A DNA stretch of 58,602 nt from the NCBI GenBank assembly GCA_021776675.1, contig JAJFFM010000149.1, forward strand, positions 1-58,602. The letters are read 5' to 3'. This document shows, in pieces, positions 3,540 through 52,892 of the stretch (within the stretch, counting starts at the first letter, position 1; the number at the start of each line of letters is the position of its first letter). The DNA comes from Robiginitomaculum sp. Its GTDB lineage: Bacteria > Pseudomonadota > Alphaproteobacteria > Caulobacterales > Maricaulaceae. Position numbers and translations under genes: made by a program. The notes beneath the pieces are model-generated. The model saw nothing but the letters and a program-made list of their open reading frames with translations. It did no database searches and was not told the origin of the DNA.

Positions 3540-3839
3540 TTAGGAATGCGCTTCTGTACTCTCAGTTTTCAAAGTCATACCGAGTGCGGACAATACAGCA
3601 AGGATGGTTCCAAATTGGGGCTTACCAGTTTTCTTAAGCCCGCGGTATAGGCTAGGACGTGACAGCTTGGCCTTGATCGCAATCTCACTCATGCCTTTAG
3701 CGCGGGCGACAATACCTATAGCGTCGATGATGTGGGCTTCTTCACCTGTTTCAAAAGCTTCTGATAAATACATAGCAATATCTTCGTCGGTTTTGAGATA
3801 GTCGAGGACGTCCCATTTGGTAGTTTTTAATTTTGTCAT
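3540..3839 (-). CDS. Addiction-module antidote protein (HTH, HigA/Xre-like antitoxin)
   Basis: MTKLKTTKWDVLDYLKTDEDIAMYLSEAFETGEEAHIIDAIGIVARAKGMSEIAIKAKLSRPSLYRGLKKTGKPQFGTILAVLSALGMTL matches the 'putative addiction module antidote protein' family. I chose the internal ATG at 3839 rather than the 155-aa ORF start at 4007, which would overlap the toxin gene. The gene lies 16 nt downstream of the toxin stop. Confidence 0.8.
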   Translation of the reverse strand: MTKLKTTKWDVLDYLKTDEDIAMYLSEAFETGEEAHIIDAIGIVARAKGMSEIAIKAKLSRPSLYRGLKKTGKPQFGTILAVLSALGMTLKTESTEAHS

Positions 3840-3855
3840 TTTTCCTTTTTCCTTT

Positions 3856-4146
3856 TTAAATACGCTTGGCCATATCCTTTGCTTTTTTAATGTCTTTAGC
3901 TTGTGTTTTTTTGGAACCACCACACAGCAAGATAACGACAACGCTACCTTGTTTAGTGAAGTATATCCGATACCCAGGGCCGTAGTTAATGCGCATTTCG
4001 CTGACACCCTCGCCTACGGGCTTAACGTCACCGAGGCTACCTTGTTCAGTTAGACGAATGCGGGAAGCAATTTTGATAATGGCACGACGGTCTTTAAGAG
4101 CTTTTACCCACTTATCAAATTCATCCGTTTTGCGAACTTCTAACAC
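3856..4146 (-). CDS. RelE/ParE-superfamily toxin ('addiction module killer protein' type)
   Basis: 96 aa with a GTG start. FDKWVKALKDRRAIIKIASRIRLTEQGSLGDVKPVGEGVSEMRINYGPGYRIYFTKQGSVVVILLCGGSKKTQAKDIKKA is the characteristic killer-protein pattern (G.GyRiYf......vilLlcGGdKstQ..DI..A). Confidence 0.8.
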   Translation of the reverse strand: MLEVRKTDEFDKWVKALKDRRAIIKIASRIRLTEQGSLGDVKPVGEGVSEMRINYGPGYRIYFTKQGSVVVILLCGGSKKTQAKDIKKAKDMAKRI

Positions 4147-17754: not shown

Positions 17755-19326
17755 GTGTACGTTCAGGATAAATTTTCTCCCTATCTTGATCCGGATCCCA
17801 TAGCTGAATTCTTTGATGATATCGGTCAACGTAGTATGGTTACGGGGCTTTTCGCGCTCCTCATCCATGTGCTTATTTTTATGATTTTACAAACCAGATT
17901 AGACATCCCGCATGTTCCAGACGAGCCTGAACCAATCATTGTCGAAATCATCAGCTTCGAACCAGAAGCCGAGCCTGAACCTGAAATAGAGCCTGAAATA
18001 GAGCCAGAACCGGAGCCGGTAGTCCGAGCCGCCGTACCGCCGCCTGCCCAAGCACCCGTTCCGAAACCCAAGCCAAAACCCAAGCCAAAACCGAAACCTA
18101 CGCCGCCACCACCTGAACCAGAGCCAGAACCAATTCCTGAGCCTGAACCAATTCCAGAACCAGTTGTCGTTCCCCCTGCCCCGGAAATCATGAAAACGCC
18201 TGAACCGGAACCGGAGCTAGACGCCCCGCCCGACCCTGTACCTATCCCTGAACCCACACTGGATGTGTTCGACCCGGAATTGGTAAGCCAGACCGACCCT
18301 GAGCTCACGCCTGAACCTGTCCTCGACATTTCTGAACCAATCGTCGAAGCTACAGAACCAATCGCGCCTTTATTTGAGTCCGACATTCTGGAAACCGAGC
18401 TAGAGCCTGAAGACTTGCCGGAAATTGACGAGCTCCTAGAACTGGCACCTGCACCCGTCATCACCGAAGAACCGTTATCGGGTGTAGAAACACCAGAGCC
18501 CGAACCAGCGCCAGAATTACCCCCGCCGCCTGCACCACTATTTCAACAAGACATAATTGACACCCCGCAAACCCAGACCGAGCCAGAAATAGAATTACTG
18601 GACATACCGGACATCGAAATTGCTGCCATTCCGCCGACCATCCTTGCATCGCCTGATGCCCCGACAACACAAGATGAGGCCGAAAATTCTATCCCGCAGG
18701 AACAAGCCATCACACCGCTTGATTTCATTTTGAAAGACCGAGGTAATTCTGGCGTACCGGGTGACGATATAACTGGCTCCTCTAACCCATTCGCGGGTGA
18801 CATCGGCACCCCTTCTGGCGCGCCCGTGTTCACAGGCTCGACACCGCGCGCGGCGCCGGGTGCCGGTGGATGGCAAATAAACGGCACATGGCCTGCTGAT
18901 GGTTTGCCGGGTGGTAAGGGTATAATTCGCGATATAGACTGTCGGGGCGAAAAACGTGACCATGAAGAATGTCCTGAATATGTACGCGGCAATACGGGGC
19001 GCGGTGCAGACGGGTTCGAAGCTTTCGGCCCACACACGCCGCTCGGCACCAGCACGGTTAAGAGATCACGAGGCATGGCCCCTAATTTAGCTATTACACC
19101 AGGCTTTGGCGATCCAGGTTCTCCTTCGGGAAATGTACTCGGCGATGCGGGTGGTTTCCAAGGCCAATTCTTCGGCGATAATGTTGGCCCGCGCGACCAA
19201 GGCCGCCGCATTCGGGATGTTTTTAGTGCGCCTGATACTGCCCCGTGGACAACGCAAACCGTCTTACCACCTCCGCCAGACGAAGACGACGAGGATGAAT
19301 TGATTATTTTGAAAAAACCGGAATAA
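17755..19326 (+). CDS. Membrane-anchored proline/glutamate-rich protein (TonB-like N-terminus, non-TonB Gly-rich C-terminus)
   Basis: 523 aa with a GTG start and one N-terminal TM helix (GLFALLIHVLIFMIL). A long (EP)n/(KP)n tract follows (EPEPEIEPEIEPEPEP...PKPKPKPKPKPKP). The C-terminal 200 aa are G/P-rich and lack the TonB C-terminal domain pattern. Confidence 0.6.
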   Translation: MYVQDKFSPYLDPDPIAEFFDDIGQRSMVTGLFALLIHVLIFMILQTRLDIPHVPDEPEPIIVEIISFEPEAEPEPEIEPEIEPEPEPVVRAAVPPPAQAPVPKPKPKPKPKPKPTPPPPEPEPEPIPEPEPIPEPVVVPPAPEIMKTPEPEPELDAPPDPVPIPEPTLDVFDPELVSQTDPELTPEPVLDISEPIVEATEPIAPLFESDILETELEPEDLPEIDELLELAPAPVITEEPLSGVETPEPEPAPELPPPPAPLFQQDIIDTPQTQTEPEIELLDIPDIEIAAIPPTILASPDAPTTQDEAENSIPQEQAITPLDFILKDRGNSGVPGDDITGSSNPFAGDIGTPSGAPVFTGSTPRAAPGAGGWQINGTWPADGLPGGKGIIRDIDCRGEKRDHEECPEYVRGNTGRGADGFEAFGPHTPLGTSTVKRSRGMAPNLAITPGFGDPGSPSGNVLGDAGGFQGQFFGDNVGPRDQGRRIRDVFSAPDTAPWTTQTVLPPPPDEDDEDELIILKKPE

Positions 19327-19346: not shown

Positions 19347-19655
19347 CTACCTAAGTCTAAGCACGAGATAAAGGGTAGCATCCTCAACAATATTATACGC
19401 ACTCAATGTTTTGATATCTTCCAATTGCTTCCCAGAGAAAATCAACCGTTGTATGTCTACGGGAATGCCTTCTTTGTTCAAAATAGCTTCTTTTATATCC
19501 AATATTTTTGCTGAGGGCTTAAGATCAATTTTAATGTTTTTCCCCGTCAGTGTCTTAACCGTGATACGGATTGTGTCCTCTGCCAAAGCGGGGGCTGGAA
19601 TCAAAGCCGTGCTAGCCACTGCTACAAACAAACTCAAAAAATAACGTCTTTGCAT
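19347..19655 (-). CDS. Exported ubiquitin homologue: twin-arginine signal peptide plus a ubiquitin beta-grasp domain ending LVLRLR, with no Gly-Gly
   Basis: I chose the ATG at 19655, which is preceded by GGAGG at 7 nt, over the ORF-track start at 19688. The signal is [25 protein letters not shown] (an RRxFL Tat motif and an AxA cleavage site). The mature part [74 protein letters not shown] aligns without gaps to ubiquitin residues 1-74, with 45/74 identities by hand count. Confidence 0.85.
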
Positions 19656-19710
19656 AAATACCTCCAAACAATCCTCGACCCGTAACAATATTTCCTGTTA
19701 AAAGAAACCT

Positions 19711-21243
19711 ATGAATGTGTTTTGCTTATATATATCAACGTTTCGCGTATTCAATTGGGATGATTTTACTTCGTCTGCACTCGGGGTATTTGCTTTTTTG
19801 TTTTGTGCGGTACTAGGCACTGTAGTCATTACGTCCTTGGCATTTTTTGTGGTTGATATTAGCCAGACCAAAGATTCGGTACGGCGAAATTTTCCTGTAC
19901 TTGGGCGGTTTCGCGGATTATTTTCTCACTTGGGGGAATTTTTCCGCCAGTATTTTTTCGCTCAAGACCGCGAAGAAATGCCGTTTAATCGGGCGGAACG
20001 GGACTGGATTTACACGGTGAGTAAAACCGGAAGCGAAACAGTACCCTTTGGTTCGACCCGTAATTTAACGCAAGGCGCAGTAATTTTTGCTAATGGTATG
20101 TTCCCCAAAATGGAAGGCGAGCACGAGCTTCATGTCCCCAAACTCATCGGAGCGGACGCAGAGCATCCTTATCAACCGGGAAGCTTTTTCAATATCTCAG
20201 CAATGAGCTACGGCTCTTTATCCAAACCGGCCATACAGGCTTTGTCCTACGGAGCGGCTATGGGCGAGTGTTGGCTCAATACGGGTGAAGGCGGGGTATC
20301 ACCCTATCATTTGGAAGGCGGTTGCGACCTAGTCTACCAATTGGGTACGGCAAAATTCGGCGCCTGCAATGCGGACGGCACCCTAAATGCAGATAAATTA
20401 CGCGAGATATGTACAAACCCCAATATAAAAATGATTGAGCTAAAGCTCAGCCAAGGTGCCAAGCCGGGTAAAGGCGGGATTTTGCCGGCCGCAAAAGTTA
20501 CCGCAGAAATCGCTAAAATACGCGGCATCCCGGAGGGCGAAGCCGCCATATCCCCGAACAGACATGTGGAGGCAGCAGACGCAGAAGAATTGCTCGATTT
20601 AATCGCAAGTGTCCGCAAAATATCCGGACGACCTACGGGCATTAAAATGGTCATTGGCGATCTATCCAAACTCGACGAGTTTATTGCGGCCATAACGAAG
20701 CGCGGCGCGCAAAGCGCACCGGATTTCGTTACTTTGGACGGCGGCGACGGCGGCACGGGCGCAGCCCCGATGCCGCTGATTGACAATATGGGCCTGACCA
20801 TTCGCGAGAGCTTGCCTGCGACTGTAGACGCCTTAGTCGCGGCAGGACTGAGAGAGCGTATCCGCATCATTGCCACGGGTAAGCTTATCACGCCTGCCGA
20901 GGTTGCATGGGCATTTTGCGCAGGTGCTGATTTTGTCTCTTCGGCGCGCGGCTTCATGTTCGCTCTTGGCTGTATCCAAGCTATGAAATGCAACACCAAT
21001 ACTTGCCCCACAGGGATCACCACTCATAACCAACGACTACAACGCGGGCTCAACCCTGAGAACAAAGCCGAACGGGTGCGAAAATTCATCAAAACCATGT
21101 GCTATGAAGTCAGCATGATTGCCCATTCGTGTGGTGTTGACCATCCGAACCAACTCACCCGCGACCACGCGCTGATTGTAAATGCATCCGGACGTTCACA
21201 ACCGCTCACGGCGATTTGGCCCAATATTGAGACGCCTAAATGA
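19711..21243 (+). CDS. FMN-binding glutamate synthase family protein (GltB domain-2-like, membrane-anchored)
   Basis: 510 aa with an N-terminal TM segment. It contains RRNFPVLGRFRGLFSHLGEFFRQYFFA.DREEMPFNRAERDWIY, LKLSQGAKPGKGGILP and DFVTLDGGDGGTGAAP, the characteristic motifs of this family. Confidence 0.85.
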   Translation: MNVFCLYISTFRVFNWDDFTSSALGVFAFLFCAVLGTVVITSLAFFVVDISQTKDSVRRNFPVLGRFRGLFSHLGEFFRQYFFAQDREEMPFNRAERDWIYTVSKTGSETVPFGSTRNLTQGAVIFANGMFPKMEGEHELHVPKLIGADAEHPYQPGSFFNISAMSYGSLSKPAIQALSYGAAMGECWLNTGEGGVSPYHLEGGCDLVYQLGTAKFGACNADGTLNADKLREICTNPNIKMIELKLSQGAKPGKGGILPAAKVTAEIAKIRGIPEGEAAISPNRHVEAADAEELLDLIASVRKISGRPTGIKMVIGDLSKLDEFIAAITKRGAQSAPDFVTLDGGDGGTGAAPMPLIDNMGLTIRESLPATVDALVAAGLRERIRIIATGKLITPAEVAWAFCAGADFVSSARGFMFALGCIQAMKCNTNTCPTGITTHNQRLQRGLNPENKAERVRKFIKTMCYEVSMIAHSCGVDHPNQLTRDHALIVNASGRSQPLTAIWPNIETPK

Positions 21244-22085
21244 AAAAACCAGTTGTTGAGAATATAGATGACTTATCCACGGATATTGCGGGCACAACCG
21301 GCTTTTTAAAAGTCGAGAGGGATGTAGACCCCGCGCAGGTTGAATCCGACTGGCAGCATCTTCAAAAGCACGGTTTTGTCATGATGAAGAACCTGATTTC
21401 CCATGCCGAGGTCGAACAAGTGAAAGCCGCTCTTACGCCCCTGTTTGACAAGGTTGGCCGCAATGAGTTCGAAGGGGAGCTTACACAGCGCATATATTCG
21501 ACTATGGCCAAAACTCGCGCCGTAGATTGGCTGGCTACGCATCCGCGTATTCTGGCCCTGCTCGACAAAATGTTCATGCCGAATTACCGGTTATCGCAAT
21601 TGCTCGGCATCAATATATTACCGGGCGAAAGTGCACAATTCATTCATCCTGATGACGGGTTTTATCCCGTACCCCGTCCGCGCCCACCGCTCGGCGCAGC
21701 CAGTATATTCGCGCTGGATGATTTTACCGAGAAAAACGGCGCCACCAGATTGATACCAAAAAGCCATCTCTGGGGGATGCGCAAACCCACCAAAAACGAC
21801 AAGGTTATCTCCGCGGTTATGCCCAAAGGCAGCGCTGTATTTTACGGCGGTACATTCTGGCACGGCGGCGGCGCGAATGTTTCGGACGCCCCGCGTATGG
21901 CTCTAACCGCACAATACTGTGAACCGTGGCTCAGGCAGCAAGAAAACCTGATGATGGCCATCCCCAAGGAGATTGTGCACAAATTAGACCCACAACTACA
22001 ATCTCTGATCGGCTACTCCATCCTGCCCCCATATATAGGTATGGTGAACGGTGTACACCCATTACGGATGTTGGACGAAGAGTGA
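21240..22085 (+). CDS. Phytanoyl-CoA dioxygenase (PhyH) family Fe(II)/2-oxoglutarate oxygenase
   Basis: 281 aa. It shows HPDDGFYP (HxD), ...GSAVFYGGTFWHGGGAN (distal His) and the overall PhyH pattern. The start overlaps the upstream stop (ATGA). Confidence 0.85.
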   Translation: MKKPVVENIDDLSTDIAGTTGFLKVERDVDPAQVESDWQHLQKHGFVMMKNLISHAEVEQVKAALTPLFDKVGRNEFEGELTQRIYSTMAKTRAVDWLATHPRILALLDKMFMPNYRLSQLLGINILPGESAQFIHPDDGFYPVPRPRPPLGAASIFALDDFTEKNGATRLIPKSHLWGMRKPTKNDKVISAVMPKGSAVFYGGTFWHGGGANVSDAPRMALTAQYCEPWLRQQENLMMAIPKEIVHKLDPQLQSLIGYSILPPYIGMVNGVHPLRMLDEE

Positions 22086-22089
22086 GCTT

Positions 22090-22431
22090 ATGAAATTATT
22101 GGTAATAAAACTTATAACTTATCCGCTTGTCTATTTTTCTATCTGCTTCATTTTAGCAAGTGGTTTCGGATCCGCATTTTCCGGAATGTTTGACCCTGTG
22201 CCTGAAGACTATTTATCCTATGGAAACTATTTTGATGGTTTCATAATTGGTTTAGCTATGGGCGCAACGATTGGGTTTTTTTTATACGGAATTGTTTTTG
22301 GCATTTCAGCCTTCATTTACTCTTTGATGCCTCAAAAGTTTAGTTCAATTCTAAAATTTATTTTCTTGGGTTTTACAATAATCTTTGGCTATTTGTCAGG
22401 TTCAATTTTTGCAACAGGTTTGGCGATTTAA
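22090..22431 (+). CDS. Small integral membrane protein (3-4 TM), hypothetical
   Basis: The internal ATG at 22090 gives MKLLVIKLITYPLVYFSICFILASGFG.... The product is strongly hydrophobic and AT-rich. The gene begins 4 nt after the PhyH stop. Confidence 0.5.
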   Translation: MKLLVIKLITYPLVYFSICFILASGFGSAFSGMFDPVPEDYLSYGNYFDGFIIGLAMGATIGFFLYGIVFGISAFIYSLMPQKFSSILKFIFLGFTIIFGYLSGSIFATGLAI

Positions 22432-22522: not shown

Positions 22523-24430
22523 TTATCCCGCTTTGACTTTGGCAACCCATTGATCAACTCGGCGTTCAAGCACGGAGAGCGGCATAGCACCACCTCCAAG
22601 AACCGTGTTGTGGAATTCACGGATATCGAATTTATCGCCCAATTCTTTTTCGGCGTCCCGACGTAGCTCTTGTATTTTCAGCATACCGATTTTATATCCT
22701 GTTGCCTGTCCTGGCCATGTCATATAACGGCGGACTTCCGCACGAGCTTGCCCTTCGGTAATTGCTGAGTTTTGTTTGAAATACGCGATGGCGTCTTCTT
22801 CGCTCCACCCTTTTGAATGCAAGCCAGTATCAACAACAAGACGAATAGCGCGCCAAATTTCAGACCCTAATCTGCCAAATTCTGAATATGGATTTTCATA
22901 CGTGCCGTTGAACTCAGTCGCCAGCCATTCAGTATACAAAGCCCACCCTTCGGAATATGCATTAAAGCCTGCTTGTGTGCGAAATGTTGGTACGCCGGTT
23001 AATTCTTGAGCAATCGAAATTTGCATATGATGCCCCGGCAGACCTTCGTGGTATGCAATCACTTCAAGTTCCCGCTTCGGCATGGCTTTCATATCTGATA
23101 AATGTGCATAATACACACCGGGACGTGATCCATCTGGCGTTCCTGAATTATAATGCTGGGGCGCACCATCTTGTTCGCGAAACGCCTCAACTCGTTTCAC
23201 TTCAAGGTCAGCTTTGGGCAGAATACCGAAAAAACTTGGCAGTTCTTTTTTAATGCGGTCAAGCGCAGAGGTCGAATCGTCGATATAGGCTTGGCGGCCC
23301 GCATCCGTATTGGGGTAATAATAGCGTGGATCGTCTTTATTGTCTCGAAGCTCGGTGAAAAAGGCTTGCAAATCTCCTTCAAAGCCAACCTGCTCTTTGA
23401 CTTTGATCATTTCGGCGCGCAGACGAGCAACCTCATCCAGACCAATTTTGTGAATTTGCTCAGACGTCAAATCCGTTGTTGTATTATTTGCAAGTCTCTC
23501 ATTGTAATAGGCTTCGCCGTTTGGAAGAGCACCAACACCCGTTCCCAGTTCGGGCGTATTTTTAACATCTTCTTTCTGCCATGCTATCAGGTTTTCATAA
23601 GCCGGCTTCCAGTCGTCGATCAGTGCTGTTCGCGCCGCCATCTTCAAGCTATCCGCTTTGGTAGTATCGATTTCGTCCTTGCTCAGGAGAGCATCAATTT
23701 TACTCTGCGCATCTGCCCAAATCGCGCTATCTTTTCCCTCGTCGAAGGGCGCACCTGTGATAATTTTTTGTGCTGAGTCTATTACAGACACGAATGAAAA
23801 ACGTGGTGGACGGACACCCGTTTCTGCATTGGTTTTTGAGAGCACAATTAACTGATTAATCACTCTGCCTGTCTCGGAAAGACGGCTGATATAGGCTTCC
23901 ATGTCCGACACATTATCAACTTTGTGGACGGCGATTAATATCCTTGGGAATTGGGTATGCACGGCACCCATTTGCTCAAATATATATCCGTTATTTCTAA
24001 ATTTATCAGCATTGACGGCAGTTTGATATTGATATTCCCATATATCCCAGGAAATTTTCGCATCAGATGTCAATTTATCATAATCGAAATTTGTCTTCAT
24101 CGCATCGACGGTCGCCTTTCGCCATGCCATTTGCTTGTCAGACGCTTCTTGAGAAACATCATCCATTGCAGCGTAATTCGTCTTTCGGCCAAGGAAGGTT
24201 TGCTGCAAGGGACTGAAAGCAACTTCTTCTTCAAACTTTTCTTCAAACCATACGTTCAGACGTGCGGTTTCTGCCGTAATTTCATCTACAGAATAACGTG
24301 CGGCTGGGGCTTCTTTCGACGCTGGCGTCGATGTCGAGGGGGAACAAGCGGCCATTGCGCTGGATGCTAAAAGTGTAATTAAAAGATGGCCGGTTGTTTT
24401 ATTAAAGTTAAATTTAGGTGCTATACTCAT
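22523..24430 (-). CDS. DUF885 family protein with signal/lipoprotein-type N-terminus (paralogue 1 of 3)
   Basis: 635 aa with the signal ...LLASSAMAACS. It carries the DUF885 hallmark EVIAYHEGLPGHHMQ and YSEGWALYTE...W.A.RLVVDTGLH. Confidence 0.85.
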   Translation of the reverse strand: MSIAPKFNFNKTTGHLLITLLASSAMAACSPSTSTPASKEAPAARYSVDEITAETARLNVWFEEKFEEEVAFSPLQQTFLGRKTNYAAMDDVSQEASDKQMAWRKATVDAMKTNFDYDKLTSDAKISWDIWEYQYQTAVNADKFRNNGYIFEQMGAVHTQFPRILIAVHKVDNVSDMEAYISRLSETGRVINQLIVLSKTNAETGVRPPRFSFVSVIDSAQKIITGAPFDEGKDSAIWADAQSKIDALLSKDEIDTTKADSLKMAARTALIDDWKPAYENLIAWQKEDVKNTPELGTGVGALPNGEAYYNERLANNTTTDLTSEQIHKIGLDEVARLRAEMIKVKEQVGFEGDLQAFFTELRDNKDDPRYYYPNTDAGRQAYIDDSTSALDRIKKELPSFFGILPKADLEVKRVEAFREQDGAPQHYNSGTPDGSRPGVYYAHLSDMKAMPKRELEVIAYHEGLPGHHMQISIAQELTGVPTFRTQAGFNAYSEGWALYTEWLATEFNGTYENPYSEFGRLGSEIWRAIRLVVDTGLHSKGWSEEDAIAYFKQNSAITEGQARAEVRRYMTWPGQATGYKIGMLKIQELRRDAEKELGDKFDIREFHNTVLGGGAMPLSVLERRVDQWVAKVKAG

Positions 24431-28676: not shown

Positions 28677-29329
28677 ATACGTTAACCTTACACATTGGCA
28701 ATAAAAATTACTCTTCATGGTCAATGCGGCCTTGGCTAGTTTTGCGCAAAAGTGAGTTGTCTTTTGCGGAAAACCTGATCCAACTTGATGTCCCGGGATT
28801 TAAAGACAAATTACTGGCACTTACGGATGCGGGTACTGTCCCCGTATTACAAATCGGTGATGACATGCTGCCTGATAGCTTGGCTATCAGTGATTGGTTG
28901 GCGCAGGCCGTGCCAAACCTTTGGCCGACAGACCCCAAGGACAAAGAACGAGCGCACAGGCTTTGCAAGCAATTGCAAGATGATTTTACCGAGTTACGTA
29001 ATCACGCGCCGATGAATCTCCGGCGGCGCACCCGCACAAAAATGCCAAAATCATGTCTGGAATCTGCGGTCAAAATGGACGGTATATTTTCTGATTTACT
29101 AAGCGAGCATGACGGGCATTTTTTATTTGGTAATTGGTGTATTGCAGATGCATTTGCCACACCTTATGCGACACGTTTCGTCAGCTACGATATTCCTCGT
29201 TCCCATAAAATGGACACTTATATTAGTGAGCTCATGGGCGACGAAGATTATTTAGATTGGGAAGCCGATGCCATGGTCGAGGTTTGGGAATTACCGGATA
29301 CAGATTTGATCTACGGTGGTCGCTCTTAG
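28673..29329 (+). CDS. Glutathione S-transferase family protein
   Basis: 218 aa. NKNYSSWSMRPWLVL... and ..GTVPVL match the N-terminal thioredoxin-like GST fold. There is a 4-nt overlap with the upstream gene. Confidence 0.8.
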   Translation: MNTLTLHIGNKNYSSWSMRPWLVLRKSELSFAENLIQLDVPGFKDKLLALTDAGTVPVLQIGDDMLPDSLAISDWLAQAVPNLWPTDPKDKERAHRLCKQLQDDFTELRNHAPMNLRRRTRTKMPKSCLESAVKMDGIFSDLLSEHDGHFLFGNWCIADAFATPYATRFVSYDIPRSHKMDTYISELMGDEDYLDWEADAMVEVWELPDTDLIYGGRS

Positions 29330-30136
29330 TGCACATTCATTCCTTGCACATTTATCCTGTAAAAAGCACTCGCGGTATTAGCCTTCAAACTGCACAAGTT
29401 AAACAGCGCGGCCTTGCGGGCGACAGACGCTTCATGTTGGTAGACACAGACGGTAAGTTCATCACACAAAGGGAGTTCCCAAAATTAGCGCTACTCTGTA
29501 CACGTCAAAACGTGAGCGGAATTGCACTTAAATTGCCTGAACATGACTGGGTGGATGTACAGCACCCTTCCCCAGACAACCGCAAGCAAATCACCGTATG
29601 GCGCAGTCGTGTCGACGCTGCTTATGTTGAGGGCGAAACAAATATGGCCTGTCCGCATGGCTTGGCCGTACCGTGTCGTTGGTCTTTATGGACGAAAACG
29701 CAGAGCGCCTCGCCAATCCAAAATGGACACCCGCCCCCAGCCAAGTCAGTTTCGCAGATGGCTACCCGATTTTGATAACCAATACGGCATCGCTTACCGC
29801 ACTTAACAATCATATTACAAGCACGGATGGGAATGCCATCGGTATGGACAGGTTTCGCCCAAATATCGTCATTGAAAGCGACACTCCGTGGGCAGAGGAC
29901 AATTGGCAATCCATGCAAATCGGGGATGTTATCCTAGATCTCGTCAAACCCTGTGCAAGATGCATCATAACCAGTATCGATCAAAGCACAGGCGAAAACA
30001 CAAAAAAACCGCCCTCGCCGCCCTCAAAGACTTACACCCAAGTACAGACCCCAAAAACCCCGGTGTACTTTTTGGCTGGAACGTGGTTGCAAGAACAGTG
30101 GGGAAAATTAGTGTTAATGATACAGTCAAAATATAA
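29330..30136 (+). pseudogene. MOSC-domain protein (YcbX-like) interrupted by two frameshifts
   Basis: Frame A gives VHIHSLHIYPVKSTRGISL...ITVWRSRVDAAYVEGETN. Frame B gives KYGLSAWLGRTVSLVFMDE...VSFADGYPILITNTASL..LN...RFRPNIVIE...VKPCARCIITSIDQSTGENTKK. Frame C gives TALAALKDLHPSTDPKNPGVLFGWNVVARTVGKISVNDTVKI*. The shifts lie near 29631-29650 and in the A7 run at 30002-30008. Confidence 0.7.
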
Positions 30137-30185
30137 ACCAAAATTGAAATTTGCGCGGGGCGAAGAATTGTTGTAAGCTCCAGCT

Positions 30186-49184: not shown

Positions 49185-51014
49185 TTATTTAGACGCGACC
49201 CAGGCATCAACCCGCTCTTCCATAATCGACAAAGGCACAGGGCCTGAACTGATGATGACATCATGGTATTCGCGAATATCAAATTTATCACCCAGTGTAG
49301 CTTTAGCCGCTTCACGTAAAGACAGAATTTTCAACATACCAATTTTGTATGCGGTTGCCTGTCCTGGCATGATGATGTAACGCTCAATAGCTTTGATACA
49401 GTCATTTTCTGCATTGGGTGTATTTGTGGTGAGATAATCAATAGCCTCTTGGCGAGTCCATTTTTTATCGTGCAAGCCCGTATCTACAACCAAACGTGCG
49501 GCACGCCACAGTTCCATAGCGAGACGGCCGAAATCAGAATAAGGATCCTCATAGAACCCCATTTCTTTGGGCAGGAATTCTGAATACAGTCCCCAACCTT
49601 CGGAATACGCCGTGAAGCGGCCAAATTTACGAAACTTTGGAACATCCTCTAATTCCATCTGAATGGCGATTTGCATATGGTGACCGGGAATGCCTTCATG
49701 GTATGCCAGAGCTTCCATCTGGTATTTCGGCATGTCGGTTATCTGGTAGAGATTAGCATAATAAGTGCCGGGTGTTGTACCATCTGCGGAAGGTTGATTA
49801 TAGAATGCCTTTCCGGCAGATTTCTCGCGAAACGCTTCAACTTTTTTGACGATTAAATCAGCTTTAGGCTTGACGATAAACACATCATCAAGACGCGTTT
49901 TCATAACGCCGATTATGCTGTCCGCTTCCTTAAGATAAGCTTCCCTTCCCGCATCACTATCTTCGTAATATTGCGCCGGGTCATTTTTAACCTTGTCAAA
50001 AAACTCTTGCAAACTACCTTCAAAGCCGACCTGTTTCATGATGGCGCGCATTTCGCCGTGTATACGGGCGACTTCGGAGAGACCAAGATCATGAACTTCC
50101 GTGGCCGACATATCCGTCGTGGTCATGCGCTTAAGACGGTCAGCATAATACTCTGCACCGTCCGGCAATTTCCATGCGCCGTCATCCGTATTGGCATTCG
50201 CCTGCATGATTTCCATCTCGGCAATCATATTTTCATAGGCGGGCTTGAATGATGTTTGAAACGCGGTAATTGCATCCGCAGTTAATTTTTCACGTTGCTC
50301 GTCTGTGATGTCCAACTTGCCAATCTTCTTGGTGAAGTCTGCCATCAAAGCTGACGGCTCGCCTTCAGTAAACGGTGCGCCAACAATGATATTTTTAGCA
50401 TCGCGAATTACATGAGCATAAACATAAAGCGGCGGCTGGATACCGTTCGCTGTACTGTTTTTTTCGTTTTCTACATGAACGGCTAGATACTCTTTTACCC
50501 CGTGCAAGCGAGTAATATAAGCCTCGGCGTCACTGATAGTATCTACACGGTGACGATTGATGAGGAACGACGGAATATTGGACTGTACACCGAACATCTG
50601 GTTGAATGTATAGCCGTAATCCCACCACCGGGCACCGTCGATTTGTTGTTGGCTTTGGATTTCAAACAGGCGGTATGACAGCTGATGGTCTGCATCAAGA
50701 TCATCCATATTATATGCGGCACGCATATGCGCCAAATCGGTACGCGCCTTCTCAACACCTTCAAGGTAAAATGCTTTGCTCGGGTCATTCCACTTGTCAT
50801 AGTCCGTCTTCATGCCCAGCGTGGTCATGAATTGTGGGCTCTTGTGTACGGCATCCATAAATACAGATTCGAACCAAGCATCCAGTTTCTGGTTCTGGTC
50901 TTGAACGTCTGCACTGACGGCAGGTGTCATAGTTTCACCATTGGTTTTATTCTCGCTCTGGGAGCATGCGCCGAGCGCTAACACGCAGGCTGTAAGTATC
51001 AAATATTTCTTCAT
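49185..51014 (-). CDS. DUF885 family lipoprotein (paralogue 2 of 3)
   Basis: 609 aa with the lipobox LALGAC. It carries EALAYHEGIPGHHMQ, YSEGWGLYSE and RLVVDTGLH. Confidence 0.85.
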   Translation of the reverse strand: MKKYLILTACVLALGACSQSENKTNGETMTPAVSADVQDQNQKLDAWFESVFMDAVHKSPQFMTTLGMKTDYDKWNDPSKAFYLEGVEKARTDLAHMRAAYNMDDLDADHQLSYRLFEIQSQQQIDGARWWDYGYTFNQMFGVQSNIPSFLINRHRVDTISDAEAYITRLHGVKEYLAVHVENEKNSTANGIQPPLYVYAHVIRDAKNIIVGAPFTEGEPSALMADFTKKIGKLDITDEQREKLTADAITAFQTSFKPAYENMIAEMEIMQANANTDDGAWKLPDGAEYYADRLKRMTTTDMSATEVHDLGLSEVARIHGEMRAIMKQVGFEGSLQEFFDKVKNDPAQYYEDSDAGREAYLKEADSIIGVMKTRLDDVFIVKPKADLIVKKVEAFREKSAGKAFYNQPSADGTTPGTYYANLYQITDMPKYQMEALAYHEGIPGHHMQIAIQMELEDVPKFRKFGRFTAYSEGWGLYSEFLPKEMGFYEDPYSDFGRLAMELWRAARLVVDTGLHDKKWTRQEAIDYLTTNTPNAENDCIKAIERYIIMPGQATAYKIGMLKILSLREAAKATLGDKFDIREYHDVIISSGPVPLSIMEERVDAWVASK

Positions 51015-51047: not shown

Positions 51048-52892
51048 TCATTGTTGTGTTTTTTTGTTGTCTATCCATTCATTGACCAGCTCTTCCAGCA
51101 TTGTCAACGGCACTGAACCATTGGCCAACACGACATCATGAAACTCACGAATGTCGAAATTATCGCCAAGTTCTTCTTGCGCACGTTTCTTAAGTTCACT
51201 GATTTTCAGCATACCAATTTTATAGGCTGTTGCTTGCCCCGGCCAGACAATATAGCGGTCAATTTCTGCGCGGATATCACCTTCGGGGTTCGCTATATTT
51301 TTTAACATATATTGCACGGCCTGTTCACGCGTCCATTTTTTCGAATGGATACCCGTATCTACAACCAAACGTGCGGCTCGGAATATCTCCATAGAGAGGC
51401 GCCCAAAATCATTATAAGGATCTGTGTACATGCCAAGCTCGACCGGCACACTTTCCGCATATAGCCCCCAACCCTCAATATAGGCAGTGTGGCCGCCTTG
51501 TTTACGAAACTCTGGTATGCCCTTAAGTTCCATTGCAATGGCAATTTGCATATGATGACCGGGAATACCCTCATGGTAGGCCAGAGCCTGCATTAGATAT
51601 GTTGGCTGATCACGCACATCTTCTAGATTAACAAAATAAGCCCCTGGCCTAGTACCATCCAATGATGGCTGCTCATAAAATGCGAAAGCTGCCGAGGCCT
51701 CACGGAACGGTTCAACCCGTTTAACAATCATATCCGCTTTGGGCTTGGTGATAAACAAATCATCCAATTTAAGTCTCATTTCGTCAATCACGACAGTAGC
51801 CTCTGACATATATTGCGCGCGGCCTGCATCGTCATTGGACAATGTAAATTGCGGATCCGTACGTAAGAATTTGTAGAAATCCTGCAAACTGCCTTCAAAC
51901 TCCACTTGCGCCATAATTTTTCGCATCTCGTCTTGGATACGGGCAACCTCTGCTAGACCAATATTATGAATTTCATCTGCAGTTAGCTTTGTGGTCGTAG
52001 CGTAATTGAGTTGAGACTGATAATACGCTGCACCGTCTGGAAGTCGCCAAACGCCATCATCATTCTTAGCAATAGCTTGATGTGCTTCAAACATAGCGAT
52101 TAGGTTTTCATAGGCAGGTGCAACAGATGTGAGTAAAGCCTGTTTTGCTTGCTCTAATAATACATCTTTGTCCGCCTGGTTTACTTTTTTTAAGTTGGCA
52201 ATTTTAGCTTTGATATCAGCGTAAAGCGGGCTGTCAATTTCGTCCGTAAATGGTGCACCCGTAATCACATTACGAGACGTCTTGACCAGTTTTGCATAGG
52301 CAAATTTTGGCAGTAAAACACCGGAATTTGCCTGCGCTTCTGCTCGTGATTGGTACTGTCCGAAATACTTCGTGGTAGCGTTTAAACGTGCAATATATGC
52401 GCGGGCATCTTGCGCACTTTTTACAGTATGAAAATTGACCATAAAAGTTGGAAACTCACCGTGCGGCCCGAACATATGGTCAAACACATATCTATGTCCG
52501 GCAAATTTATGCCTCGCTTCAGAAACATTCCCATTATATTCATACAAACGGTAAGAAATTTTACCCTGCCTATCAAGATTGGCAAGGCTGAACTGAGTAC
52601 GCATATCGGCAACAGATTTTTGTTCAAGCGCATATTCCTCATCAAGAGCGGCTTGCGATACATCATCAAGTTTAGCCGAGCTATCTTGTAAACCAAAATA
52701 TGTCTGTGTCATTGGTGACTTGGCCAAACCTTCTTGGTAACGGGCCTCGAACCATTCATTTATTTGTTCGGTTTGCGATTCTACTTTATCGACCTTAGGC
52801 ACATCTGAACCAGAACACCCGACCAAGCCAATGGTCAATAATGCTCCAGCAAAAACACCAACTGCTTTATGGCTAAGCAAGTGTTTGAACAT
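51048..52892 (-). CDS. DUF885 family lipoprotein (paralogue 3 of 3)
   Basis: 614 aa with the lipobox GLVGCS. It carries QALAYHEGIPGHHMQ, YIEGWGLYAE and RLVVDTGIH. It sits in tandem with paralogue 2, 33 bp apart. Confidence 0.85.
   Translation of the reverse strand: MFKHLLSHKAVGVFAGALLTIGLVGCSGSDVPKVDKVESQTEQINEWFEARYQEGLAKSPMTQTYFGLQDSSAKLDDVSQAALDEEYALEQKSVADMRTQFSLANLDRQGKISYRLYEYNGNVSEARHKFAGHRYVFDHMFGPHGEFPTFMVNFHTVKSAQDARAYIARLNATTKYFGQYQSRAEAQANSGVLLPKFAYAKLVKTSRNVITGAPFTDEIDSPLYADIKAKIANLKKVNQADKDVLLEQAKQALLTSVAPAYENLIAMFEAHQAIAKNDDGVWRLPDGAAYYQSQLNYATTTKLTADEIHNIGLAEVARIQDEMRKIMAQVEFEGSLQDFYKFLRTDPQFTLSNDDAGRAQYMSEATVVIDEMRLKLDDLFITKPKADMIVKRVEPFREASAAFAFYEQPSLDGTRPGAYFVNLEDVRDQPTYLMQALAYHEGIPGHHMQIAIAMELKGIPEFRKQGGHTAYIEGWGLYAESVPVELGMYTDPYNDFGRLSMEIFRAARLVVDTGIHSKKWTREQAVQYMLKNIANPEGDIRAEIDRYIVWPGQATAYKIGMLKISELKKRAQEELGDNFDIREFHDVVLANGSVPLTMLEELVNEWIDNKKTQQ

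What the first reader, a model, noticed from the sequence alone, without database searches (positions are those of the whole stretch)
19347..19655. Twin-arginine-exported, near-eukaryotic ubiquitin homologue with no Gly-Gly tail and no conjugation machinery
**Similarity to ubiquitin.** The mature 77-aa product aligns gap-free to eukaryotic ubiquitin residues 1-74, with 45/74 identities by my hand count. It keeps the L8/I44/V70 hydrophobic patch, K6, K11, K27, K33 and K48 (K29 becomes A, K63 becomes E), the KEGIP.D.QRLIF.GKQLED core, and the C-terminal LVLRLR. This is far closer to ubiquitin than typical prokaryotic beta-grasp proteins such as ThiS, MoaD, Pup or the Bil/Bub ubiquitin-like proteins.

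**No conjugatable tail.** The ORF stops (TAG) directly after R74. There is no Gly-Gly and no downstream in-frame extension that would encode one.

**Export signal.** The N-terminus [25 protein letters not shown] fits the Tat consensus (R-R-x-F-L) and has an A-x-A cleavage site. This would export an already folded domain.

**Context.** A GGAGG Shine-Dalgarno sequence lies 7 nt before the ATG at 19655. The ubiquitin-like part is visibly more AT-rich than the flanking genes. The gene is monocistronic: it is convergent with a Pro-rich envelope protein gene and divergent from an FMN-dependent GltS-like gene. I found no E1, E2, JAB/DUB or RING-like gene anywhere in the window.

**Precedent and hypothesis.** The only well-known precedent I am aware of is Bacteroides fragilis BfUbb, an exported ubiquitin of apparent eukaryotic origin that mediates intraspecies antagonism. 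An analogous horizontally acquired, Tat-exported ubiquitin mimic in an alphaproteobacterium would be unusual. It could act as an inter-bacterial toxin or as a decoy against a eukaryotic host or grazer ubiquitin system.
Basis: partly seen in the sequence, partly recalled or inferred. Interest (0 to 1): 0.9.

Follow-up and report, generated by a model that had tools for sequence, protein, structure and literature searches.

The report
Exported ubiquitin in a marine bacterium
A marine stalked bacterium (Robiginitomaculum) carries a real, eukaryote-type ubiquitin gene that has gained a bacterial export signal and lost the tail needed for tagging proteins. It is a second, independent kind of "secreted bacterial ubiquitin" besides the one known from gut Bacteroides.

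Summary
Window 19347-19655 (-) encodes a 102-aa protein. Residues 29-102 align without gaps to ubiquitin 1-74 at 45/74 identity. It matches Pfam PF00240 (E 7e-23), and the AlphaFold model superposes on ubiquitin (TM 0.96, rmsd 0.6 A). The ORF stops after R74, so there is no Gly-Gly.

The N-terminus is a cleavable-looking signal peptide with a Q-R-R-x-F-L twin-arginine motif. No E1, E2, JAB or RING gene lies in the 58.6 kb window.

The host is a Robiginitomaculum-like alphaproteobacterium. The gene is not a chimera and not a recent insertion:
- A 64%-identical orthologue sits in the same chromosomal slot on six independent metagenome contigs.
- dN/dS is 0.1-0.2.
- GC3 is normal for the window.
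- One sister genome that lacks the gene still keeps its ribosome-binding site and first ~8 codons.

It is only 35% identical to BfUbb and has no cysteine, so this is an independent capture. Unlike BfUbb, it keeps ubiquitin's canonical I44 and I36 recognition faces and has remodelled the helix face.

Best reading: an exported, non-conjugatable ubiquitin mimic that acts by non-covalent binding; its target is unknown. Tat export rests on the motif only. This is a new variant of a known kind. Interest 0.65.

The parts
19347..19655 (-). Complete gene for the 102-aa ubiquitin-like precursor (ATG 19655-19653; TAG stop 19349-19347)
   Evidence: ORF list and sequence. Pfam PF00240 scores 80.7 bits. It is the only ubiquitin-like sequence in the window by tblastn.
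19661..19665 (-). Shine-Dalgarno GGAGG, 5 nt upstream of the ATG
   Evidence: Read directly from the sequence. The same GGAGG-plus-ATG arrangement occurs in the P0071-lineage orthologues, and it survives as a remnant in genome L004, which lacks the gene.
19581..19655 (-). Signal peptide, codons 1-25 ([25 protein letters not shown]); predicted cleavage after A-L-A
   Evidence: Hydrophobic h-region (Kyte-Doolittle maximum 2.2 over 12 residues) and an AxA site. The region is unstructured in the AlphaFold model, pLDDT about 50. An equivalent peptide is present in the orthologue P0071.
19635..19649 (-). Twin-arginine motif R-R-Y-F-L (codons 3-7)
   Evidence: It matches the TatP-type pattern RR.[FGAVML][LITMVF]. 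It is conserved as RRDFL in P0071, while the rest of the signal peptide diverged. No Tat HMM hit reaches threshold.
19350..19580 (-). Mature 77-aa ubiquitin-fold domain: E-D-T followed by the equivalent of ubiquitin residues 1-74. It ends LVLRLR with no Gly-Gly and contains no cysteine.
   Evidence: 45/74 identity to ubiquitin without gaps. AlphaFold pLDDT exceeds 90 across the domain. Foldseek gives TM 0.96 and rmsd 0.6 A to ubiquitin chains.
17755..19326 (+). Left boundary of the slot: a convergent 523-aa membrane-anchored protein with Glu-Pro/Lys-Pro repeats (resembles TonB; that comparison is from my own knowledge) and no Pfam hit
   Evidence: Orthologues at 71-82% identity flank the slot in all related loci, whether or not the ubiquitin gene is present.
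19711..21243 (+). Right boundary of the slot: a divergent Glu_synthase-domain (FMN) gene. The 55-bp spacer 19656-19710 holds both upstream regions.
   Evidence: Pfam PF01645. The block just upstream of its ATG is conserved in L004 and L009.

Best explanation
The gene encodes a domesticated eukaryote-type ubiquitin that the bacterium exports and cannot conjugate.

**Shown**
- The mature 77-aa domain is a true ubiquitin beta-grasp.
- It stops at residue 74, so it cannot be activated by an E1. No E1, E2 or DUB gene is nearby.
- It carries an N-terminal signal peptide.
- It was already present in the common ancestor of several Robiginitomaculum-like species. It has been inherited vertically in one fixed chromosomal slot under purifying selection, and at least one lineage has deleted it.

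**Inferred**
- The RR-x-F-L motif routes the already folded, very stable domain through the Tat translocon to the periplasm. Signal peptidase I then cuts after ALA. Onward release, for example in vesicles, is possible but unknown.
- Outside the cytoplasm it works as a stand-alone binding module, a ubiquitin mimic, through non-covalent contacts. Selection has preserved the surfaces that ubiquitin receptors read: the K6-K11 loop, the L8/I44/V70 face and the I36/L71/L73 patch. The helix face was rebuilt early and then frozen ([10 protein letters not shown] in both lineages).

**Favoured target (weakly).** I favour a partner that recognises ubiquitin's canonical face. The most plausible candidates are ubiquitin-binding proteins of the eukaryotes these surface-dwelling bacteria live on or are grazed by. 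This mechanism would differ from that of BfUbb.
For: **Identity and fold**
- 45/74 identity to ubiquitin.
- PF00240 at 80.7 bits.
- PDB ubiquitin hits at about 1e-22.
- AlphaFold pLDDT above 90 across the domain.
- Foldseek TM 0.96 and rmsd 0.6 A.

**No conjugation**
- The stop codon follows R74 directly.
- The orthologue stops at the same position, ending LVLKLN.
- The window Pfam scans show no ThiF, UQ_con, JAB or RING domain.
- There are no PADLOC hits.

**Export**
- The signal peptide is conserved in both lineages and includes RR-x-F-L.
- The motif plus a hydrophobic stretch occurs only here and in the Rieske protein among 50 window proteins.
- The window's Rieske protein matches PF10399, the Rieske subunit's TAT-signal family. 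Rieske proteins are classical Tat substrates, so the organism very probably has a Tat system (inference).

**Real, old and functional**
- Orthologues lie in the same slot on six independent contigs, L001-L003 and L007-L009.
- The two lineages share 17 derived residues.
- dN/dS is 0.16 between lineages (0.11 for the mature part) and 0.10-0.15 within the P0071 lineage.
- GC3 is normal.
- L004 lacks the gene but keeps the ribosome-binding site plus about 8 codons: 25/29 nt identity, alignment score 38 against 17.4 +/- 1.9 in shuffles, 0 of 300 shuffles reaching it.

**Canonical faces preserved**
- I44 face 13/14, I36 patch 3/3 and core 14/17 are identical to ubiquitin. Only 15/40 of the remaining positions are.
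- Three-way invariant positions number 12/17 on the faces against 8/40 elsewhere (Fisher p = 4e-4).
- BfUbb shows the reverse pattern: 8/14, 0/3 and 31/40.

**Ecology.** Robiginitomaculum is repeatedly reported on kelp and other macroalgal surfaces and in marine biofilms (titles and abstracts listed).
Against: - No experiment or dedicated predictor supports Tat routing. TIGR01409 and PF10518 do not hit. The n-region is very short and there is no basic residue in the c-region.
- Nothing shows that the protein leaves the periplasm. No secretion system or delivery device is linked to it.
- A eukaryotic cytosolic target would need a delivery route for which there is no evidence.
- Related MAGs come from subseafloor and vent-type samples as well as from surfaces.
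- In the P0071 lineage several E1-contact or linkage residues have drifted: R42K, F45V, K48Q, R72K, R74N. The mimicry is therefore imperfect.
- The face and core position lists used come from my memory of the ubiquitin structure.
- Hydrophobic patches can also be conserved for reasons of stability.
Confidence: 0.55

Rival explanations
1. It is an interbacterial toxin of the BfUbb/BoUbb type. In this reading the exported ubiquitin homologue is released, taken up by related bacteria through an outer-membrane transporter, and kills them by binding an essential periplasmic protein.
For: - The architecture is the same as BfUbb: a signal peptide, then a ubiquitin domain, with no Gly-Gly and no immunity gene (PMC3352274; PMC5705921).
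- Presence is patchy among close relatives, as for ubb.
- The organism lives in dense surface biofilms where antagonism pays.
Against: - The mature part has no cysteine, whereas the C-terminal disulfide is reported as crucial for BfUbb antagonism (PMC11467351).
- Identity to BfUbb is only 26/74, and the two proteins changed opposite surfaces.
- The known importer is a SusCD pair, which is a Bacteroidota device.
- The gene is old, vertically inherited and under ordinary purifying selection (omega 0.1-0.2). It does not turn over on an island.
Confidence: 0.2
2. It has an endogenous periplasmic role. In this reading the captured beta-grasp domain was recruited as a small adaptor or chaperone-like subunit for the bacterium's own envelope physiology and has nothing to do with other organisms.
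For: - The gene shows long vertical inheritance at a fixed housekeeping locus with omega about 0.1-0.2.
- A newly evolved helix surface, [10 protein letters not shown], is strictly conserved and is not ubiquitin-like.
- It lies next to a conserved envelope-spanning protein with Glu-Pro/Lys-Pro repeats.
Against: - The gene is dispensable. It is deleted in L004 and absent in L005 and L006, while the neighbouring envelope gene stays.
- Adjacency with that neighbour is convergent, not operonic.
- This reading gives no reason why exactly the canonical ubiquitin-receptor faces should stay intact.
Confidence: 0.18
3. It is an artefact or a relic: eukaryotic or viral contamination joined to a bacterial contig, a mis-called start on a cytoplasmic protein, or a decaying pseudogene.
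For: - Raw GC is lower than in the flanking genes.
- The exact protein occurs on one contig only in the protein collection.
Against: - The same gene lies between the same two bacterial genes on six independent contigs from at least three samples.
- A homologous remnant survives in a sister genome.
- The ORF is intact, with conserved start, stop and ribosome-binding site in both lineages, and omega is 0.1-0.2.
- GC3 is normal.
Confidence: 0.02
4. It is the ubiquitin-like component of a bacterial conjugation system (Bil/Bub, CBASS-Cap2, or an archaeal-type E1/E2 operon) whose enzymes lie outside the window.
For: Such systems exist in bacteria (for example PMC10557695, listed). Only 58.6 kb of the genome was seen.
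Against: - There is no C-terminal glycine in either lineage.
- A signal peptide would remove the protein from cytoplasmic enzymes.
- The window holds no E1, E2 or JAB gene and gives no PADLOC hit.
- The sequence is far closer to eukaryotic ubiquitin than bacterial Ubls are.
Confidence: 0.02

Closest known systems
BfUbb / BoUbb, the secreted ubiquitin homologues of Bacteroides fragilis and B. ovatus (PMC3352274, PMC5705921, PMC11467351)
   Same: - Each is a eukaryote-type ubiquitin, about 61-63% identical to human ubiquitin, in a bacterium.
- An N-terminal signal peptide is fused directly to the ubiquitin domain.
- Neither has Gly-Gly or conjugation enzymes.
- Presence is patchy among close relatives.
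   Different: - It is an independent acquisition: 26/74 identity to BfUbb against 45/74 to ubiquitin.
- It has a twin-arginine-type signal, not a Sec/SPI signal.
- It has no cysteine, so it lacks the C-terminal disulfide needed for BfUbb toxicity.
- It keeps the L8/I44/V70 and I36 faces that BfUbb has changed, and it remodels the rest of the surface that BfUbb kept.
- Its host is a marine alphaproteobacterium without the SusCD importers.
- It is a solitary, ameliorated gene in a housekeeping locus, whereas ubb sits on an 11-kb low-GC island.
Eukaryotic ubiquitin (Pfam PF00240)
   Same: - The fold is the same (TM 0.96).
- Identity is 61% without gaps.
- The hydrophobic core, the K6-K11 loop, I44, V70, I36, L71, L73, R42 and R72 are retained, as are five of the seven lysines.
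   Different: - It is truncated after R74, so it cannot be activated or conjugated.
- It is made with a bacterial signal peptide.
- The helix face is rewritten: 5/15 identity over residues 18-32.
- K29 becomes A and K63 becomes E.
- It evolves at a dN of about 0.22 between congeneric lineages, whereas ubiquitin is almost invariant across eukaryotes.
Monomeric ubiquitin genes of giant viruses and entomopoxviruses
   Same: - They are single-copy, intron-free ubiquitin genes, some of which also lack Gly-Gly (P0095 ends LVLRLR).
- They share individual states with the window protein: [17 protein letters not shown].
- A poxvirus ubiquitin gene was proposed as the source of BfUbb.
   Different: - They have no signal peptide.
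- None is clearly closer to the window protein than cellular ubiquitin is: the maximum is 48/74 against 45/74. A viral donor is therefore only a possibility.
Other signal-peptide ubiquitins found here: Ruminococcus albus 7 plasmid pRUMAL01 WP_013483628.1, and metagenomic P0089, P0100/P0233 and P0103
   Same: - Each has a bacterial-type signal peptide placed directly before a ubiquitin domain.
- P0103 also has an RR-S-F-L motif.
   Different: - These are near-canonical ubiquitins and so look like recent captures.
- Some keep Gly-Gly (P0089, P0100).
- The R. albus protein carries a 145-aa C-terminal extension.
- None shares the 17 derived residues of the Robiginitomaculum family.
- None has been studied.
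Secreted ubiquitin effectors of plant-parasitic nematodes (Globodera UBCEP12, as discussed in PMC5705921)
   Same: Each is a ubiquitin domain given a secretion signal and used outside the producer cell to act on another organism.
   Different: They are eukaryotic producers using ER-type signals. They have a cleavable C-terminal extension peptide, and the ubiquitin moiety is conjugation-competent.

Membership tests
Ubiquitin family (Pfam PF00240, eukaryote-type ubiquitin) | Sequence match above the curated threshold | tested here: met
   80.7 bits against a cut-off of 25.4, E 6.8e-23, covering profile positions 1-72 of 72. Identity to human ubiquitin is 45/74.
Ubiquitin family (Pfam PF00240, eukaryote-type ubiquitin) | Beta-grasp fold superposable on ubiquitin | tested here: met
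   AlphaFold pLDDT exceeds 90 for residues 30-100. Foldseek against PDB ubiquitin chains gives TM 0.96 and rmsd 0.6 A.
Ubiquitin family (Pfam PF00240, eukaryote-type ubiquitin) | C-terminal Gly-Gly for E1 activation and conjugation | tested here: not met
   A TAG stop codon follows R74 directly. The orthologue P0071 ends at the same position with LVLKLN.
Ubiquitin family (Pfam PF00240, eukaryote-type ubiquitin) | E1/E2/E3/DUB machinery encoded with it | tested here: not met
   No ThiF, UQ_con, JAB, RING or HECT domain appears in any window ORF of 150 aa or more. The rest of the genome was not seen.
Bacteroides ubiquitin homologues (BUbb: BfUbb, BoUbb) | Signal peptide fused directly to a ubiquitin domain that lacks Gly-Gly | tested here: met
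   The architecture is as described for BfUbb in PMC3352274 and PMC5705921.
Bacteroides ubiquitin homologues (BUbb: BfUbb, BoUbb) | C-terminal cysteine or disulfide, reported as crucial for antagonism | tested here: not met
   Neither the window protein nor P0071 has a cysteine anywhere in the mature domain. The requirement is taken from PMC11467351.
Bacteroides ubiquitin homologues (BUbb: BfUbb, BoUbb) | Common descent with BfUbb, meaning closer to it than to eukaryotic ubiquitin | tested here: not met
   Identity to BfUbb is 26/74, against 45/74 to ubiquitin. The BfUbb sequence was recalled from memory. It scores 166.7 bits over all 76 residues against PDB 8hm3_A and gives the published count of 48 identities to human ubiquitin.
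Bacteroides ubiquitin homologues (BUbb: BfUbb, BoUbb) | Kills related strains by binding a periplasmic PPIase after SusCD (ButCD) import | not testable with these tools
   This needs growth-inhibition and binding assays. SusCD pairs are a Bacteroidota feature (general knowledge).
Twin-arginine (Tat) exported proteins | Z-R-R-x-Phi-Phi motif at the boundary of the n- and h-regions | tested here: met
   The motif is Q-R-R-Y-F-L in the window protein and Q-R-R-D-F-L in P0071. Among 50 window proteins, the pattern plus a hydrophobic stretch is found only here and in the Rieske subunit.
Twin-arginine (Tat) exported proteins | Recognition by curated Tat-signal profiles (TIGR01409, PF10518) | tested here: inconclusive
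   Neither profile hits the window protein. P0071 gives a sub-threshold hit to the Rieske Tat-signal model PF10399 (21.2 bits against 24). These short profiles are insensitive: the window's own Rieske protein scores only 16 bits on PF10518.
Twin-arginine (Tat) exported proteins | Tat machinery present in the organism | tested here: inconclusive
   No tatABC gene lies in the window. The window's Rieske protein matches the Rieske TAT-signal family PF10399 at 63.5 bits. Rieske proteins are classical Tat substrates, so this suggests a Tat system but does not show one.
Twin-arginine (Tat) exported proteins | Export dependent on TatC and on the RR pair | not testable with these tools
   This needs a tatC mutant or an RR-to-KK substitution, followed by cell fractionation.
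Bacterial Ubl conjugation or defence systems (Bil/Bub, CBASS Cap2, ThiS/MoaD, Pup) | Adjacent E1-, E2- or JAB-type enzymes and a C-terminal glycine (Gln or Glu for Pup) | tested here: not met
   No such domains occur in the window. There are no PADLOC hits for the gene or its neighbours. The C-terminus is Arg.

The most novel reading that the evidence does not exclude
A marine algal-surface bacterium has kept an exported ubiquitin decoy for a long time. The decoy's receptor-binding faces are preserved on purpose. It would plug ubiquitin receptors, DUBs or E1 enzymes of a eukaryotic host or grazer, or bind an as yet unknown bacterial ubiquitin reader, without being conjugatable. Together with BfUbb/BoUbb, the Ruminococcus plasmid protein and the metagenomic cases, it would show that bacteria from at least three phyla have repeatedly captured ubiquitin. 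Each capture added an export signal, and the older captures lost the Gly-Gly tail. The outcome would be at least two mechanistically different products.
Probability: 0.3. Interest if true: 0.8.

Novelty: new variant of a known kind. Interest (0 to 1): 0.65.

Why it matters
**Why the literature gap matters.** Papers on BfUbb describe B. fragilis as the only bacterium, or one of a few, with a eukaryote-type ubiquitin.

**What this case adds**
- It is an independent capture in a different phylum and habitat.
- It uses a different likely export route (Tat).
- It shows the opposite pattern of surface conservation to BfUbb. Secreted bacterial ubiquitin is therefore a recurrent evolutionary solution and probably has more than one mode of action.

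**Why it is tractable**
- The protein keeps the canonical ubiquitin recognition faces and is only 77 residues long.
- It would make an easy probe for asking what an extracellular or periplasmic ubiquitin binds.
- The natural presence, absence and deletion series within one genus offers ready-made comparisons for ecological or co-culture experiments.

Tried and rejected
- **Close relatives in GTDB species genomes.** A scan with exact peptides of the window protein found nothing.
- **More family members.** Two searches of the 5.8-billion-protein collection, one with the single sequence and one with the two-sequence profile, returned only the window protein and the P0071 cluster as full-length relatives. 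Everything else was ordinary ubiquitin or polyubiquitin.
- **A phage or virus vector.** There was no hit in IMG/VR or in GenBank phages.
- **A donor clade.** No database ubiquitin is closer than 48/74. Giant-virus-like monomeric genes share a few states, but not convincingly. I did not build a tree, because 74 near-invariant columns cannot resolve it.
- **Tat-signal HMMs.** TIGR01409 and PF10518 gave no hit.
- **Promoter and terminator scan.** It found nothing above the shuffle expectation.
- **Rfam.** Nothing in the window.
- **The upstream DUF900-OmpA gene as a functional partner.** It accompanies the orthologue in the P0071 lineage. I rejected it because it is absent from the window. It interrupts a spacer that is contiguous in both the window and L004. 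It is frameshifted in several contigs.
- **P0102 as a signal-peptide ubiquitin.** I discarded it because its cluster consists of eukaryotic polyubiquitin fragments.
- **The window protein's own contig.** The look-up was not on record.
Full report
**1. What is in the sequence**

Window 19347-19655 (minus strand) is an intact 102-codon ORF. A GGAGG lies 5 nt upstream of its ATG.

A computed gap-free alignment places residues 29-102 on human ubiquitin 1-74 with 45/74 identities.
- K6, K11, K27, K33, K48, L8, I44 and V70 are kept.
- K29 becomes A, K63 becomes E, H68 becomes Y.
- The ORF stops directly after R74.

Other measures agree.
- Pfam PF00240 scores 80.7 bits against a threshold of 25.4.
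- PDB ubiquitin chains match at about 1e-22.
- An AlphaFold model has pLDDT above 90 throughout the domain, with the ubiquitin order of strands and helix.
- The model superposes on solved ubiquitin structures at TM 0.96 and rmsd 0.6 A.

**2. Whose genome it is, and whether the junctions are real**

The window is ordinary alphaproteobacterial chromosome. It holds carB, greA, trxB, a LysR regulator, aspartate aminotransferase, petABC, prs, pth, rplY, ychF and lgt. Rfam finds no RNA gene.

The convergent neighbour is a 523-aa membrane-anchored protein with Glu-Pro and Lys-Pro repeats and no Pfam hit. It has orthologues in three GTDB genomes, all named Robiginitomaculum sp.. The lineage is Alphaproteobacteria, Maricaulales, Robiginitomaculaceae.

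A 100-aa orthologue of the ubiquitin-like protein exists as protein P0071.
- It is 64% identical over the full length.
- It begins MQRRDFL and ends LVLKLN.
- Its cluster holds six sequence variants.
- It occurs on six independent metagenome contigs, always convergent with the same Pro-rich gene.
- On the longest of these contigs, the Glu_synthase-domain gene and the PhyH gene follow on the other side, as in the window.

Contamination or a chimeric assembly is therefore excluded as far as sequence can show.

**3. History of the gene**

The three Robiginitomaculum genomes L004-L006 have the synteny orf96, Pro-rich gene, Glu_synthase-domain gene, PhyH gene. They have no ubiquitin gene. The spacer is only about 60-90 bp.

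The 87-bp spacer of L004 is not naive sequence. On the reverse strand it reads AGGAGGCACATAAGCTCAGGCGTGATTTTTGGG.
- This is homologous to the ribosome-binding site, the start codon (now AAG) and the first ~8 codons of the ubiquitin gene.
- It matches the P0071-lineage sequence at 25/29 nt. The alignment score is 38, against 17.4 +/- 1.9 in shuffles, with 0 of 300 shuffles reaching it.

So the gene was present in the common ancestor of the window lineage, the P0071 lineage and L004. L004 later lost it by a deletion of roughly 285 bp. Whether L005 and L006 ever had it is unclear.

Other evidence points the same way.
- The two surviving lineages share 17 derived residues relative to ubiquitin, so they descend from one acquisition.
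- Between them dS is saturated (1.1-1.3).
- dN/dS is 0.16-0.21 overall and 0.11 for the mature part. Within the P0071 lineage it is 0.10-0.15.
- The gene is therefore functional. Its dN of 0.22 is two to four times that of its neighbours (0.05-0.11).
- Raw GC is low (40.1%, z = -2.0) but GC3 is unremarkable (z = -0.75). This fits an old, ameliorated gene whose AT-richness reflects its amino-acid composition.

No donor can be named. The closest ubiquitins in 5.8 billion proteins reach only 48/74. Some monomeric ubiquitin genes share a few states with it ([17 protein letters not shown]). They lie on contigs that look like giant viruses, with a B-family DNA polymerase, RING and HSP70 genes and many orphan ORFs. 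This is a hint only.

**4. Export**

Both lineages have a 23-25-residue N-terminal peptide. It consists of M-Q-R-R-x-F-L, a moderately hydrophobic stretch and a small-x-small site (ALA/ED in the window, VSA/TG in P0071). The RR-x-F-L part is conserved while the rest has diverged.

Among 50 proteins of the window, a Tat-type pattern followed by a hydrophobic stretch occurs only here and in the Rieske iron-sulfur subunit. Roughly fifteen other proteins in that scan begin with hydrophobic, signal-like N-termini that lack the RR motif.

The Rieske protein matches the Rieske subunit's TAT-signal family PF10399. Rieske proteins are classical Tat substrates, so the organism very probably has a Tat system. 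This is an inference, since no tat gene is in the window.

Against this, neither TIGR01409 nor PF10518 hits. Only P0071 gives a sub-threshold hit to the Rieske Tat-signal model.

Export is well supported. Tat routing is a reasonable inference that still needs a dedicated predictor or an experiment. Ubiquitin folds fast and is very stable (general knowledge), and this makes a folded-protein pathway plausible. BfUbb shows that Sec can also export such a domain.

**5. What it cannot be**

- It has no C-terminal glycine in either lineage.
- A signal peptide removes it from the cytoplasm.
- No E1, E2, JAB or RING domain occurs in 58.6 kb. The short unassigned ORFs were inspected by eye and none looks like such an enzyme.
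- There are no PADLOC hits.

It is not a conjugation system.

**6. Comparison with BfUbb**

BfUbb and BoUbb have the same architecture: a signal peptide, a ubiquitin domain and no Gly-Gly. According to the literature:
- they are secreted;
- they kill related Bacteroides by binding a periplasmic PPIase after import through a SusCD transporter;
- they need a C-terminal disulfide (PMC3352274, PMC5705921, PMC11467351).

The window protein differs.
- It shares only 26/74 residues with BfUbb, against 45/74 with ubiquitin. The BfUbb sequence was recalled from memory and checked against PDB 8hm3_A.
- It has no cysteine.

The two proteins have also diverged from ubiquitin in complementary ways.

| Region | Window protein identical to ubiquitin | BfUbb identical to ubiquitin |
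|---|---|---|
| L8/I44/V70 face, including the K6-K11 loop | 13/14 | 8/14 |
| I36/L71/L73 patch | 3/3 | 0/3 |
| Hydrophobic core | 14/17 | 9/17 |
| All other positions | 15/40 | 31/40 |

Positions invariant among ubiquitin and both Robiginitomaculum lineages number 12/17 on the two faces, against 8/40 elsewhere (Fisher p = 4e-4). The position lists come from my memory of the ubiquitin structure.

Residues 18-32, the exposed helix, are 12/15 identical between the two bacterial lineages ([10 protein letters not shown]). They are only 5/15 identical to ubiquitin. That surface was rebuilt early and then conserved.

**7. Most likely mechanism**

- Shown: it is an exported-looking, non-conjugatable, selectively maintained ubiquitin fold.
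- Inferred: it is a free-standing ligand that works by non-covalent binding through the canonical ubiquitin recognition faces, possibly with a second, lineage-specific surface on the helix.

I weakly favour a target that normally reads ubiquitin. That points to proteins of the eukaryotes these bacteria live on. Robiginitomaculum is repeatedly found on kelps, other macroalgae and marine biofilms.

No delivery route to a eukaryotic cytosol is evident. Related genomes also come from non-host samples. The P0071 lineage has drifted at R42, F45, K48, R72 and R74.

A BfUbb-like antibacterial role and a purely endogenous periplasmic role remain live rivals.

**8. Wider pattern seen in passing**

Signal-peptide ubiquitins recur.
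- Ruminococcus albus 7 plasmid pRUMAL01 encodes a Sec signal, a near-canonical ubiquitin without Gly-Gly and a 145-aa extension.
- Contig L012 has a bacterial neighbour gene (QSregVF_b). It encodes a Sec signal plus ubiquitin that still has Gly-Gly.
- The P0100/P0233 cluster, on compact soil contigs, does the same.
- P0103 carries RR-S-F-L before ubiquitin.

Adding an export signal appears to be the usual fate of ubiquitin genes that land in bacteria.

**9. Verdict**

The feature is real. It is a new variant of a known kind, the exported bacterial homologues of eukaryotic ubiquitin. It is independent of BfUbb and probably differs in mechanism. Its function is unproven. Interest 0.65.

Noticed in passing
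L001 80-1557; L009 2838-4297; L008 1-989: In the P0071 lineage a 1.8-kb DUF900 (alpha/beta hydrolase) plus OmpA-domain gene sits 48 bp upstream of the ubiquitin gene on the same strand. It interrupts a spacer that is contiguous in the window and in L004, so it looks like a later insertion. It is split by a frameshift at the same place in L001 and L009, and by a different one in L008. It may therefore be decaying, or these may be assembly errors.
   Followed up: partly
L020 3929-4669 (NC_014824.1 387760-388500, Ruminococcus albus 7 plasmid pRUMAL01): An annotated 'ubiquitin family protein' of 246 aa. It consists of a Sec-type signal peptide, a near-canonical ubiquitin domain ending LVLRANGD (no Gly-Gly) and a ~145-aa C-terminal extension. 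It lies among dockerin and PI-PLC genes. This is another independent exported bacterial ubiquitin.
   Followed up: partly
L012 716-1039; L021 1265-1561; L022 899-1195: Short contigs with bacterial-type neighbours (QSregVF_b; an APH-family kinase) encode a Sec-like signal peptide fused to ubiquitin that still ends in Gly-Gly (P0089, P0100/P0233). P0103, on a 1-kb contig, has RR-S-F-L before ubiquitin and ends RGD.
   Followed up: partly
L010 6001-6264; L013 5001-5234; L016 3816-4058; L019 164-415: Monomeric ubiquitin genes lie on contigs that look like giant viruses, with PolB, RING and HSP70 genes and many orphan ORFs. One of them (P0095) also ends at LVLRLR without Gly-Gly.
   Followed up: partly
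window 17755-19326 (+): A 523-aa protein with an N-terminal membrane anchor, long Glu-Pro and Lys-Pro repeats like TonB, and a conserved two-cysteine C-terminal region. It has no Pfam hit. It is conserved across all related Robiginitomaculum loci.
   Followed up: partly
window 22051-22431 (+) and the PhyH-DUF885 spacer: A 126-aa multi-pass membrane ORF with very low GC (35%) and no family match. The spacer between the PhyH and DUF885 genes is about 440 bp here but about 1.15 kb in L004, so this is a second variable spot close to the ubiquitin slot.
   Followed up: no
window 22523-24430, 49185-51014, 51048-52892 (all -): Three DUF885 paralogues of about 610-635 aa lie in one 58-kb window. Two are in tandem, and all three have lipoprotein-like N-termini.
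   Followed up: no
window 29257-29775 and 29673-30176 (+): The MOSC_N and MOSC domains lie on two overlapping ORFs in different frames. This may be a frameshifted or mis-assembled single MOSC gene.
   Followed up: no
window 3540-4007 (-): An ORF matches the 'addiction module antidote' family PF21716 (dnstrm_HI1420), so a toxin-antitoxin remnant may lie near the start of the window.
   Followed up: no
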